Shown: positions 20,501 to 26,500 of the stretch, piece by piece | Layout of the letters: each line of letters starts with the position of its first letter | How positions within the stretch are numbered: the first letter of the stretch is position 1 | Origin: Leptogorgia sarmentosa | Lineage: Eukaryota | Length of the DNA stretch: 64,000 nt | Direction of reading: 5' to 3' | Assembly (NCBI GenBank): GCA_964658305.1 | Contig: OZ210884.1 | Span: 1,426,001-1,490,000 of the forward strand | Translations under genes and position numbers: made by a program | The notes under the pieces: model-generated | Database searches by the model: none | Seen by the model: only the letters and a program-made list of their open reading frames with translations | What the model was told of the DNA's origin: nothing

Positions 20501-23500
20501 TTCGCCTGCGAATTGTGGTAATACGGTTGATATGACGCCACAATATAAACCAAACCCAGTGTGTTGGTTGGTAATGCAAGGTATCCATCCCCGGCATAGC
20601 CATTACCTTGGTTATTTAAGCACAACACTGAAATATCTCTCGTTGCTGAAATTTCGATGCCGTATAAGAAGGAAGATTTCGATGGAGCCAAACGCAGAGA
20701 TAGTGGTAGCTTATACTGGAGGTTTTCTCCTCCTTTGATATGCACAGTGTAGTTCCATGGCTTGCTTGATTCAATGGCAAAGATTGTCAAGTTTGTATCC
20801 AAGGGAGCAAGGATTGATAACCCAATATAATCATTTCGATTATTACTGTATTGATTTGTAAATCCAATGATGAACTGTTTGGCGTAATGGTTTGAAGTGC
20901 CTAAACGAAGATATAGCGAATCTTTTGAGCAACTTTAATTTCTATTACCCACAGGATTTCTTTTTTACAACCGATGTATAGACTGAGTGAATTAATCGTA
21001 CGCCGATGATACTTCACCCTTCATGCAATCACTAAATCAAGAGGCATGGATCGAAAGCGTAAAAACCACACGTAAATATATGTTATTTACCAGCTGGGAG
21101 GTCCGTACTGGAAAATATTTTGTCGAAATATTTTGAGACCGAGACAAAATATTAAACAATTATTGAATGAGGCCGAGTAGGATATGAGGAATTATTCAGG
21201 CCGAGGTTTGTGTTATCCGCCGAAGCCGAAGGCTGAGGCAGATAACACAAACCGAGGGCTGAATAATTCCCCATATCCTACGAGGACCGAATTCAATAAT
21301 TGTTTTATCATTCATTTGTATATAGCGCTTGCAAAAACACGCAATTGCAAGGTACTGGAGATAGAACAATAATATAGTGTTCGCAAGATTGAATAAGCCA
21401 ATCAGACTACAAGAGAATATGTTTTTATAGCTGTCGTACATTTCAAGGTCGCAGTCAAAGCAATTCAACATAGTAAAAAACAAGAATTAAATCAAACAAA
21501 TTTATTTCAACTTAATATAAACGTTTGGAAGAACCTTTCCTTTGAGGAAGCCATTTGTATTTTCCACTATTTTTCCGCTTTTGGCATATGCAGAATAAAT
21601 TAGTCGACGTCAAAATGTCGTATAACTACGTCATAATGCCATATATGAGGATTTAATGCACTGCTCTTAACCAATCAGAACTCTTGAATTATTTGAAATA
21701 AATAATAATTATCATTATCTGAGAATAATAATATATTAACCTATGTCTTTAAATTTACAAATTTAAAACAGAAATACTTACTTTCGAGTCTGCTTTGGTA
21801 AGACGGTACAGGAGATAAAGCGAAAGGATTTGAATCTAAAAATATCCAAAACAAATCGCTATAAGTTACCAATAACAAATTACAGCGATGTGTTTGTCAA
21901 TACCAGAAGAGTGTAAATGCAACATAGATATGTATATAAATACATAGATGCCGACTTGCTTGTCGTCAAATAGATACGGGCGAATGCATGGCTTCAAACT
22001 ATATTGACTTCGAAATTCGATTGGCAGGAGTGGTATTCTTTTAATTGGAAATTAGGCAATGCAGTAGAGACCTTGAATAGAAATATTGCTTCGAAGCAAA
22101 CTTCAAGTAGCACCTTGGCTTTTTTATATTATTTGTAACGACATTTGCACACCGGATTCTACGATAAGTGAGCATACGTAACATGGCTAAAAAATTTTCA
22201 GTGGTTTAATTAACGAGAATACTTTCAATGATTTTATCTGAGTCGGACATGCAAATTTTACATCAATTCAATATATTAAAGACCTTTTTGGGAATTATAC
22301 TCTATTTTGGCATCGCTCACTTTTTCACATTCCCGTGACACAAGATGATCACTCACAACCTTTCAGTTTTATGTAAATTTAATTTAACATAAGTAATTTC
22401 TTGAATAAATCACCGCAAAGGGCTGCATAAAAACATATAATCTCAACGTTCTAGCCACGTGTTTCTCTTCGTCCTACGAACAGGTGACCTTATGTACGTC
22501 TTGCCCGCGAACAAGTCGGGGAATATTTCTCTACAACATTTTCAAACCTTCCCAACAACAAATGAACTCACCATGTGAATGATTAGGTAACATATATCCA
22601 CCAGTATAGGCGTATGATGCGCCAGATGTCCAACCAAATACTAGAACACCAAATCTTACCGATGACGAAGTATGATAGACTGTAACAGTGCTTGGGTCAG
22701 AAAAACTTACTGCAGTCCATACATATTTTGTTCCATTGATGGCTTCCCAGCGTAATCCATTCAGTTTTATTCCGTTCATATACAAACCTTGAACCTTGTC
22801 ATTTTCAATCATTATGGTGATGGAATCATGATATTCTGAACCAAATGGAAGAATCACACGATAGTAAGACAGGAACTGATTTATTGATGGTAGGACCATC
22901 ATGGAAGGTTCAGAATGTTTACCGCCAATTGTTACTCCTCGTATGTACTGGACCACTTGACATGGTTCACTACAGTTGACAAATGATGCAAGTTCTTTTC
23001 CCAATTTCAACTCTACGTAACTGCCGGAAGACAACGTTTTGGTCCAATACGCCGTTTTAACAACAGTGTTATTTTTGTACGAAAAGATTCTAAAAATGTC
23101 GCCATGTTCTTTTTCTGTCTTTCCTAAAGTGGCCAAGAGGTAATGATTTCCCCACAATGACGTGGGTAGTAAAAATACTTCGAGAAAATGTTCATTCCTT
23201 GACAGACGTGAGTGACTCACGCCTGATATCACCGAGACTTGGTCACTTGCCATAACTATTGTTCCAGATAAATCTGATGAGCCTGAAATGTATAGCGCTT
23301 CAAGTCTTTGTAGCACAATGGTAATGTATAGTAAAGAAGTCGTGTAATCGTACCGTAACCCACGATAGTAAATGACCGAATCCTTATTGGGAAAGACAAT
23401 AATCGTGTTGTTATCATATGCTGATATCACGGCTATATTTGCTCGGTAACTTGTGAATGTTGTTTTTAAAGGCTGATAGGATGCAACAACATAAACTAAA

Positions 23501-26500
23501 CCTAGCGAGCTTGTTGGTAATGCCAAATATCCATCAGCTACAGTTTCATATCTTTGGTAATTTAAACACAACATTGAAATATCACTTGTTGATGATATCT
23601 CAATGCCGTTCTGGAGGTATTTCGACTGATCCATTCGCAGAGAAATTGGCAGCTTATGTTCAAATATTTCCCCTTCCATAATGCGAACAGTGTAGTTCCA
23701 TGGCTTGCTTGATTGAGTACCTTTGATGGTAACGTTGGTGTCGTAAACTGCAGCAATTGAGACTCCAATATAGTCCGTTCGATAAGTGTAACGTTGAGAT
23801 GTGAATCCAATAATGAAATGTTTTCCGTGATGGTTTGGAGATTCTATGTATTAAAGTATTTGATATGTGAAATATATAGCAACAGTACATGCAGTGATTC
23901 TATAATGGATTTGGGTGAAAATGCATATATAATAAGTAGGGGGAAATAGGGATAGGTTTTTACACAATTTACACTTGATAAATTTTAGACGATGCAGTAA
24001 GACTATGGGGCAATTTTTTCAAAACGCCGGCGTCCGGGGCATAGCGGATAGGGAGGTCTGAAGTTCATTAAACGGCGGGCATTTGAGTCATTGTGTATGC
24101 GTGGTCATTACTGATCTCAGCTTTTGAAAAAGAGCAAAAACAAAGACAAGAGCTATACTGCTGCAGGAAATTGGTTGAAAGAATCCAGCGAAAACAAATA
24201 ATTATTGAGAAAAGACAGAGAACCGGGCAGAAGGGACTACGGATTGAAAGACAGGACGAAGAAGAAAAAAAACTTGCATATATGTCTTGTTTGCAATAAA
24301 CCTTTTTGTATTTATATAATGTTAAAGACCATTAACTGTTTATAGCAGAGTAAGTTTATGTTTTGTAAATAATCAGTAGAAAACCAAACCAATTCAGTGA
24401 CAGCAGATGAAATGCGAGTGGATTAGACTTCGTTTACCAATGTCATTTTAAACGTAATGTCAATCCTCTTTAGGCCTGGAAAGCCGTTGCTTCATGTAGA
24501 ATTTTTTTGTCAACGGGAAGAGCTCATGATGGAAACGAAAATATTAAACAATTATTGAATGAGGCCGAGTAGGATATGAGTAATTATTCAGGCCGAGGTT
24601 TGTGTTATCTGCCGAAGTTTGATAACACAAACCGAGGCCTGAATAATTCCCCATATCCTACGAGGACCGAATTCAATAATTGTTTTATCATTCATTTGTA
24701 TATAGCGCTTGCAAAAACACGCAATTGCAAGGTACTGGAAATAGAACAATAATATAGTGTTCGCAAGATTGAATAAGCCAATCAGACTACAAGAGAAAAT
24801 GTTTTTATAGCTGTTGTACATTTCAAGGTCGCAGTCAAAGCAATTCAACATAGTATAAAACAAGAATTAAATCAAACAAATTTATTTCAACTTAATATAA
24901 ACGTTTGGAAGAATCTTTCCTTTGAGGAAGCCATTTGTATTTTCGGGCACTATTTTTCCGCTTTTGGCATATGCAGAATAAATTAGTCGACGTCAAAATG
25001 TCGTATAATTTTCATTAGTATAAATTTTCAAGTGACTATAACATTTCCTGCAATCTTATTGGTTAAAATTTGCTGTCTCTGGTGTTATAGTCACCGGGCA
25101 GTGACTATAACATAATTAAAATTCAAAATGGCCGCTCGGTTTGCTGAAGTTTCGCAGGAGGAAATTGACAAAATTAAACAAGAAAGCATCCCCAAGAAAG
25201 TTAAACAAGCGACAAAATATGGTTTAAAAATCTTTCAAAGTAAAATATTTTATTTATTGTTATTTTTATGCAACAAAACTGGCTTTTTTCACTAGCAAAG
25301 TGGTGATATGAGCGTGAATTATTTTATGTAAACAAACTATAAGCAAAGTAAACAAAACTTGAGTTTCTAATTAAAAGACAGTTTGAATCAAATCAGTTTG
25401 ACCTGGGAATTTATACTAAAACAATTAGTCGCCTCAGGCTTCGGTGATCACAAGCTCATAGTCACCTCGGCGCTGCGCGCCTTGGTGACTATGAACTAGT
25501 AATCACCTCGCCTTCGGCGACTAATTGTTAAATATACGACATAATTACGTCATAATGTCGTACAATACCGTCCTCGAGTAACATACACTCGACTCGCGCG
25601 TAGCGAGTGCGCACGAGTCACTCGCGAGTCGTTCGAGTACTCGTTTGACTCGCTACTCGCGAGTACGCGCAAATCATGTTGGCAAGAAATACTCGCTTCA
25701 CTCGCAAAATAGATCACTCGCTTCCCTCGCGAGTATTTCGAGTCTGCGAGTATAAAACCGGTAAAAACACTAAAAGCACTAAAAATCAATTTGTTAGTGT
25801 AAAGTTTATGTAGACATAGGTATACTCACCGCGTCATCAGGTATGACACACAGTCATGTAATAATCAAAATTATATAACACTTTGTTAAATTAGCGCGAT
25901 TTAATTGGTTATTTACGATCACGTGATATAAAATAGAAATTCCCATTTTCATGATCGTGCAATGGAAACGTGCAAATATTTCTTTCCATTGCACGGTGGT
26001 TTTAATTATTTTCAATCACTCAAAATGTTATTATTGCACACATTTAATGGCGAATCTATGAACGTGGCGACTGACGTGCACGACCATGTGAGCGATGGAA
26101 TATTATTTAGTAAACTAACAAAACAAAATGGCGGGTATTTCGTGTCAATGATTTATTTTTGTGTCATATAAAACAAATAATGAATGTTTATTTCGTGCAA
26201 TGGAAAGAATATTTTCATTCGGTGAAAGATGGAATGTTCCATTCAACTCGGCTTCGCCTCGTTGAATGGAACACTCCATCTTTCACCTCATGAAAATATT
26301 CTTACCATTGCACTCATAAACATTCATTATTTGTATAATAACCAGCGCAGGCGGTGGTTTCCCGTATTCGCTCAAAACTCCGTTGTCCTTGTATTCGATG
26401 AAAGTCCCTTCCATAAGTTTTGTCAGGTTTGATCGCCGTTTAGAGCAGAATGAATCACCGAATTTTGTATCGGTTATTTTTATCCAAAGGCCGAGCAACG

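What the first reader, a model, noticed from the sequence alone, without database searches (positions are those of the whole stretch)
22572..23843. Domain exon 8 is a mosaic of exon 5-type and exon 6/7-type segments
Its upstream intron and loop 1 (SQRYTYRTDY) match exons 6/7. The following region (LPISLRMDQSKYLQ, NYQRYET.ADG, YQPLKT.FTSY) matches exon 5. SDQV and SRNEHF match exons 6/7 again. Exons 5-8 are almost identical in their 3' two-thirds and differ in the 5' third. This implies intragenic recombination or conversion that reshuffles the variable loops into new combinations.
Basis: seen in the sequence. Interest (0 to 1): 0.7.

Follow-up and report, generated by a model that had tools for sequence, protein, structure and literature searches.

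The report
Patchwork repeat exon in octocoral gene
One of ten repeated domain exons in a likely soft-coral gene is a patchwork of its neighbours' sequences, seen again in other samples and likely made by ordinary gene conversion and unequal crossing-over; whether the reshuffled loops help the animal is untested.

Summary
The mosaic is real. The window holds a minus-strand, likely octocoral gene with ten tandem exons, each encoding one FCGBP_N (IgGFc_binding, PF17517) domain, plus short linker exons and EGF-like exons. Exon 8 (22572-23843) shares its upstream intron and loop 1 with exons 6/7, then matches exon 5 from about 23714 to 23455; the downstream intron groups exon 5 with 6/7. These three incompatible closest pairs hold at intron and synonymous sites. 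The same junction stands in single contigs of 3 of 7 public runs laid (two studies), so it is no assembly chimera; other samples carry loop combinations and a fourth exon type absent here. Two corrections: the 'switch back' at SDQV/SRNEHF has no statistical support (5 vs 2 sites), and exon 8 carries a tract (23758-23722) from a third donor. Best explanation: concerted evolution of a tandem exon array by unequal crossing-over and gene conversion, a known process. Adaptive loop shuffling is unproven: pN is below pS in the variable third. The variable third matches the first of four predicted beta-sandwich subdomains.

The parts
22572..23843 (-). Domain exon E8 (FCGBP_N / IgGFc_binding domain, 423 whole codons), the mosaic exon
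23844..24530 (-). Upstream intron of E8, exon 6/7 type (13 of 687 differ); not alignable to exon 5's intron beyond about 80 bp
23760..23843 (-). Segment A with loop 1: exon 6/7 type
23655..23759 (-). Segment A2: all three types differ; E8 differs from both neighbours at 11 sites; 23758-23722 likely from a third donor seen in runs X6 and X10
23455..23654 (-). Segment B: exon 5 type (0 synonymous differences to E5 in 46.5 sites; 6 strict, 8 by pathway count, to E6/7)
22572..23454 (-). Segment C: homogenised among E5-E8 (12 variable sites in 883 bp), star-like
22789..23002 (-). Older homogenised tract shared between the E2-4 and E5-8 groups (synonymous divergence 0.05-0.15 against 0.17-0.84, mostly 0.3-0.6, elsewhere)
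21930..22571 (-). Downstream intron: E5, E6, E7 nearly identical (E5 vs E6 1 of 642), E8 the outlier (23-24 of 638)
21782..21835 (-). 54-nt linker exon after E8, spliced to the domain exon in run X7
29345..29398 (-). Linker exon before E8
30140..31417 (-). Domain exon E7
32992..33045 (-). Linker exon before E7
33788..35065 (-). Domain exon E6, identical to E7
36640..36693 (-). Linker exon before E6
37436..38707 (-). Domain exon E5
40122..40175 (-). Diverged linker exon before E5 (48 of 54 positions match), marking an older duplication
43528..44793 (-). Domain exon E4 (99% to E2, E3; 81% to E5-8)
49108..50373 (-). Domain exon E3
52542..53807 (-). Domain exon E2
59632..60900 (-). Domain exon E1
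19638..20900 (-). Domain exon E9
19293..19340 (-). Predicted 48-nt linker exon between E9 and E10
   Evidence: splice-site scan only
17760..19001 (-). Domain exon E10
14674..16186 (-). Three predicted EGF-like exons (16186-16070, about 15821-15701, about 14791-14674) downstream of E10
   Evidence: the middle one matches the EGF tail of P0010 at E 9e-7; the other two only weakly

Best explanation
Exon 8 is a patchwork of exon 6/7-type, exon 5-type and third-type segments, likely made in the germ line by gene conversion and unequal crossing-over between tandem domain exons of one likely secreted octocoral protein. Shown: the patchwork, its presence in other samples, further combinations in other samples, splicing of domain exon to linker exon. 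Inferred history: an old duplication gave a P unit (exon 5) and a Q unit; an unequal crossover near 23455 made a Q-5'/P-3' chimera that then doubled (exons 6 and 7); the last unit (exon 8) kept Q-type flanks but had 23657-22572 overwritten by a P-type sequence and took a short tract (23758-23722) from a fourth exon type that this haplotype lacks. The 5' third likely stays diverse because homology between P and Q ends at exon 5's acceptor, so exchanges reach it least. Directions and order of events are not determined. The protein likely works as a multivalent extracellular or mucus adhesin with beta-sandwich heads (weak inference).
For: Neutral sites give three incompatible pairs: last 77 alignable bp of upstream intron 26 E5-unique and no other; segment B 6 strictly synonymous E6/7-unique sites and 0 between E8 and E5; downstream intron 23 E8-unique, 1 E6-unique, 0 E5-unique. 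Distances to outgroup E4 in B are equal (pS 0.41, 0.44, 0.41), so no lineage sped up. Tract test on third positions: E5-E8 23659-22573, E5-E7 and E7-E8 from 23452, E4-group 23002-22789; 6 of 15 pairs significant after correction. Single contigs bridge the switch: X7 23628-23788 with 0 differences (21 expected if E7, 26 if E5), X5 23591-23779 with 1 (23 or 22 expected), X9 23595-23779 with 1. One X5 contig (22963-23620, 11 substitutions, 3 gaps) joins an exon 5-type loop at 23553-23540 to a 6/7-type loop at 23473-23459, a combination absent from the window. Units repeat with introns and linkers. Similar patchy sharing is visible by eye in homologue groups P0013-P0031 and P0068-P0088. The N-terminal 130 residues are no more variable than the rest across 64 close homologues (entropy 1.09 vs 1.04, p=0.41), so the gradient is not a general constraint pattern.
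Against: Exon-only AU tests do not reject alternative trees in any of 5 segments tried (p 0.10-0.26 for the alternatives in A, AA2, B, B core). Segment borders inside the exon were chosen after seeing the data. Collapsed-event tests are only modest. The junction contig is not among the listed pieces of X1, X4, X6, X10 (lists cut: 90 and 17 pieces not shown). Three E8-private sites in C (23014, 23114, 23359) were not seen in the four runs. No long read spans the array, so copy number and order (above all the identical exons 6 and 7) are unverified. No signal-peptide exon was found in the window.
Confidence: 0.82

Rival explanations
1. Selection-driven diversification: conversion homogenises the scaffold while balancing or diversifying selection keeps and recombines the loops of the first subdomain, as in a recognition receptor.
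For: E8 vs E6/7 show an island of divergence (42 of 302) between homogenised flanks (13 of 687 upstream, 7 of 883 downstream), the pattern that PMC3924837 (passages) describes as a signature of selection against conversion. 40 of 48 variable residues lie in residues 1-128, and subdomain 1 spans 1-112. They fall on positions variable across homologues (entropy 1.64 vs 0.84, p=3e-7). By strand order in the model (parity inference, no coordinates seen) four variable loops would lie at one end of the sandwich. At least four types and several combinations occur in 7 runs, one under a second species label.
Against: pN is below pS in the variable third (0.107/0.175, 0.089/0.176, 0.133/0.238). The island follows from chimera formation alone. 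The most variable loop across homologues (211-220) is homogenised here. Subdomain 1 is the most divergent part in only 46 of 126 close homologue pairs, which are not independent. No ligand or phenotype is known.
Confidence: 0.2
2. One tree with locally fast evolution (positive selection or rate variation) in different copies, no exchange.
For: Most E6/7-unique sites in B are amino-acid changes, many derived in E6/7; exon-only AU tests are not significant.
Against: Would need region- and lineage-specific rate changes at intron and synonymous sites from 0 of 46.5 to 26 of 77; equal outgroup distances; new combinations in other samples.
Confidence: 0.03
3. Assembly or polishing chimera among near-identical repeats.
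For: Repeats of 2-6 kb at 93-98% identity; three private sites not seen; no long reads laid.
Against: The junction stands within single contigs in 3 runs of 2 studies, and those runs differ from the window at other places, so they are not copies of it.
Confidence: 0.03
4. The domain exons are mutually exclusive cassettes (Dscam-like), so that the mosaic exons are alternative heads.
For: All ten exons are phase 1-1 and could be skipped in frame.
Against: Each unit has its own linker exon, spliced on both sides of domain exons in X7 and on the 5' side in X9; multi-domain homologues exist (P0109 with 17 matched stretches, P0110 with 11). No skipping joint was seen, but contigs could not show it well.
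Confidence: 0.07

Closest known systems
FCGBP_N / IgGFc_binding domain proteins (PF17517; vertebrate FCGBP, amphioxus and bacterial members)
   Same: Same domain, far above the Pfam cut-off. Closest named homologues are from Paramuricea clavata (67-68%) and Dendronephthya gigantea, one with an EGF tail.
   Different: Ten tandem copies plus EGF-like repeats instead of one N-terminal copy before VWD-C8-TIL units; PMC4948705 (passages) reports mostly N-terminal single copies and no VWD partner in cnidarians. The domain's function is unknown and IgG binding was not reproduced (PMC11796319, passages).
Concerted evolution with interlocus gene conversion in tandem duplicates (opsin, MHC, plant R genes; PMC3924837)
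   Same: Homogenised tracts, chimeric copies, local peak of divergence.
   Different: Here the units are exons of one gene, and selection on the peak is not shown.
Podospora hnwd WD-repeat allorecognition arrays (PMC2873952, abstract)
   Same: Intragenic repeat units under concerted evolution, with rearrangements that create new unit variants.
   Different: Units here are 420-aa intron-bounded domains; no recognition function or positive selection shown.
ASRT/TM1070 beta-sandwich (ASRAH) domains
   Same: Subdomain 1 (1-112) aligns with 1nc7 at Z 7.8, rmsd 3.6, 106 residues, and 2ii7 at Z 5.0; these are predicted sugar binders (PMC2739507, abstract).
   Different: Z under 8 may mean only a common arrangement; 11% identity; no ligand evidence.

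Membership tests
FCGBP_N domain (PF17517) | Profile match above the curated cut-off over the full model | tested here: met
   E8 146.7 bits vs 25.6, model 1-297 of 297; also E1, E5, E10 (4 of 4 exons scanned)
Vertebrate-type FCGBP protein | Single N-terminal FCGBP_N domain | tested here: not met
   Ten tandem domain exons
Vertebrate-type FCGBP protein | VWD-C8-TIL repeats after the domain | tested here: inconclusive
   Downstream exons look EGF-like; small exons were not scanned against Pfam and the gene ends are not fixed
Intragenic gene conversion / unequal crossing-over mosaic | Incompatible closest pairs at neutral sites along the unit | tested here: met
Intragenic gene conversion / unequal crossing-over mosaic | Clustered tracts beyond chance | tested here: met
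   weaker after collapsing adjacent sites
Intragenic gene conversion / unequal crossing-over mosaic | Likelihood rejection of one tree within the exon | tested here: inconclusive
   AU p 0.10-0.26 for the alternatives in the four 5' segments
Intragenic gene conversion / unequal crossing-over mosaic | Junction present outside the assembly | tested here: met
   3 of 7 runs laid
Diversified recognition receptor under balancing selection (MHC, hnwd type) | pN above pS in the variable region | tested here: not met
   three pairs only, low power, no site models
Diversified recognition receptor under balancing selection (MHC, hnwd type) | High haplotype diversity among individuals | tested here: inconclusive
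   Several combinations and a fourth type in 7 runs, unphased contigs
Diversified recognition receptor under balancing selection (MHC, hnwd type) | Variant-specific binding or rejection phenotype | not testable with these tools
   needs experiments
Dscam-like mutually exclusive exon array | One cassette per transcript | tested here: inconclusive
   Linker-to-domain junctions seen; no full-length transcripts

The most novel reading that the evidence does not exclude
Octocorals have a germ-line-diversified recognition protein: a multivalent chain of FCGBP_N domains whose first beta-sandwich carries hypervariable, sugar-binding loops that are kept by balancing selection, shared across related species and recombined between exons, while the scaffold is homogenised. 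It would be a candidate microbe- or self/non-self receptor and the first handle on what the FCGBP_N domain binds.
Probability: 0.17. Interest if true: 0.72.

Novelty: new member of a known kind. Interest (0 to 1): 0.36.

Why it matters
The process is textbook, but the case is clean and current: individuals differ in which loops are combined. The FCGBP_N domain has no known function even in human mucus, and this array supplies natural loop variants on a near-constant scaffold, which makes the binding site testable. If selection on the loops were shown, it would be a candidate for cnidarian immune or allorecognition diversity.

Tried and rejected
No whole genome is held, so other loci of the family in this genome could not be checked. 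No listed holder is on record as RNA; X7 and X9 were recognised as spliced only from their loose ends. No solved structure by sequence (best E 0.99). First fold from the ten-exon alignment was poor (pLDDT 51) and was dropped for the 140-sequence model (pLDDT 94). Foldseek gave no global match (TM 0.18 or less). AU tests per exon segment were not significant. The 'switch back' was tested and rejected. The idea that the N-terminal third is a family-wide variable region was not supported. The small-exon scan missed known linkers, so it is incomplete; the contingency table entered by hand had one misplaced cell and was redone, still with the pathway count of 8 for segment B (6 by strict count), so I cite counts, not its p value. 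Earlier findings: none by place or words. Literature searches for an octocoral or coral FCGBP_N array listed no such paper, judged from titles and abstract starts; supplementary figure S5 of PMC4948705 (domain architectures) was not read and may list tandem invertebrate members.
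Full report
What is there. The window is AT-rich animal DNA. Ten long minus-strand frames are exons with AG/GT borders, all phase 1-1 and free of stops; tblastn finds no further copy. The four scanned (E1, E5, E8, E10) match Pfam IgGFc_binding PF17517. The closest named homologues among 107 hits are from the octocorals Paramuricea clavata and Dendronephthya gigantea, so the host is likely an octocoral. A 54-nt linker exon precedes E5, E6, E7, E8 and E9; three EGF-like exons follow E10. I found no signal-peptide exon in the window. E2-4 are 99% alike, E5-8 95-100%, the two groups 81%.

Checking the observation. The coordinates and peptides are right. E6 and E7 are identical. 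Counting sites unique to E5, E6/7 or E8: 23843-23760 gives 18/1/2, 23759-23655 7/5/8 (plus 3 where all differ), 23654-23455 1/27/3, 23454-22572 5/2/5. The main switch lies between 23729 and 23714; no shuffle of 20000 reached the MaxChi value and none of 100000 the descent. With adjacent sites collapsed into one event the p values are 0.04, 0.006 and 0.17 for three statistics. The claimed return to the 6/7 type is 5 sites against 2 (p=0.45); against the E2-4 outgroup only 23242 is a shared derived state of E8 and E6/7. What happens at 23455 is that all copies become nearly identical.

Is it recombination? Exon-only likelihood trees favour (E7,E8) in the 5' segment and (E5,E8) in the next, but AU tests do not reject the alternatives. 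Neutral sites are stronger: the alignable 77 bp of upstream intron have 26 E5-unique sites and no other; segment B has 6 strictly synonymous E6/7-unique sites and no synonymous E5-E8 difference; the downstream intron has 23 E8-unique, 1 E6-unique and 0 E5-unique sites in 638. Distances to E4 in B are equal for the three types. One tree cannot give this without extreme local rate changes at neutral sites. A GENECONV-like test of my own finds the tracts E5-E8 23659-22573, E5-E7 and E7-E8 from 23452, and an older tract between the E2-4 and E5-8 groups at 23002-22789.

Is it an assembly error? Eleven runs of three studies hold part of the stretch; I laid 7 of them. Single contigs carry E8's own sequence across the switch in X7 (161 nt, 0 differences; 21 or 26 expected for a pure parent), X5 (1 difference; labelled organism B) and X9 (1 difference). 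These runs differ from the window elsewhere. In X1, X4, X6 and X10 no such piece is listed, but the lists are cut. X7 and X9 have no intron cover and loose ends that are the linker exon, so they are spliced transcripts and the gene is expressed with linker-to-domain junctions. No piece spans the array.

Other samples show other combinations. One X5 contig joins the exon 5-type loop at 23553-23540 to the 6/7-type loop at 23473-23459. The listed piece over the latter loop is of the E5/E8 type in X7 and X10 and of the 6/7 type in X1, X4, X5, X6 and X9; contigs drop rare variants, so this is presence, not fixation. X6 and X10 carry a fourth exon type with its own loop, a diverged 3' part and a different acceptor region. 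A piece there shares E8's states at 23737, 23723 and 23722, and matching depths in X10 (8.5, 8.6, 9.2) suggest that it belongs to this fourth type (inference). That is the likely donor of E8's private tract.

How it likely arose. Inferred: an old duplication of linker plus exon gave P (E5; its linker matches at 48 of 54) and Q. E6/7 have Q 5' and P 3' including the downstream intron (1 of 642 different from E5), which is what one unequal crossover near 23455 gives. E8 has Q upstream and its own downstream intron but a P-like 23657-22572, which fits a long conversion, plus a short third-donor tract. Because E5's upstream intron is not homologous, exchange would fade towards the 5' end without any selection. 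Directions are not determined.

Is it adaptive? The model (pLDDT 94) has four beta subdomains, about 1-112, 114-209, 226-322, 324-416. Forty of 48 variable residues lie in 1-128, at positions that vary across homologues, and E8 vs E6/7 show a divergence island between homogenised flanks, which PMC3924837 (passages) treats as a possible mark of selection. Against this: pN is below pS in the variable third (among the few recent differences the two are about equal, 11 of 828 vs 3 of 252 for E8-E5), the N-terminal part is no more variable than the rest across 64 homologues, subdomain 1 is the most divergent part in only 46 of 126 close pairs, and chimera formation explains the island. Subdomain 1 resembles TM1070/ASRT at Z 7.8, predicted sugar binders (PMC2739507, abstract); this is a weak lead.

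Comparison. FCGBP_N is usually a single N-terminal domain of likely secreted proteins (PMC4948705, passages), of unknown function (PMC11796319, passages). Multi-copy proteins exist elsewhere, and homologue groups show similar patchy sharing by eye. The evolutionary process matches concerted evolution of tandem repeats, as in hnwd arrays (PMC2873952, abstract). Four searches listed no paper on this octocoral array.

Verdict. Observation confirmed, interpretation partly supported; a new member of a known kind; interest 0.36.

Noticed in passing
window 7497-10846 (+): Exon-like frames (7497-7955, about 8565-8951, 10196-10846) that I recall as resembling the cnidarian box-jellyfish-type (CfTX/CaTX-like) pore-forming toxin family; label recalled, Pfam gave no hit for two of them.
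   Followed up: no
window 63193-63732 (-): hAT transposase C-terminal dimerisation region upstream of E1.
   Followed up: no
window 21146-21625, 24538-25008, 32113-32918, 35761-36566: Palindromic MITE-like elements at the apparent borders of the repeated E6-E8 unit; they may have seeded misalignment.
   Followed up: partly
window 25566-28082: Nested inverted-repeat elements enlarge the E7-E8 intron by about 3.9 kb.
   Followed up: no
window 54654-55512 and 57127-57993: Direct repeat of about 860 bp at 98% in the E1-E2 intron, possibly the ends of a mobile element.
   Followed up: no
window 22789-23002 and equivalents in E2-4: Older homogenised tract between the two exon groups; subdomain 3 is also unusually alike in some distant homologue pairs (21% vs 44-55% elsewhere).
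   Followed up: partly
window 43528-53807: No copy of the 54-nt linker was found between E1, E2, E3 and E4; these units may splice directly or use linkers that I missed.
   Followed up: partly
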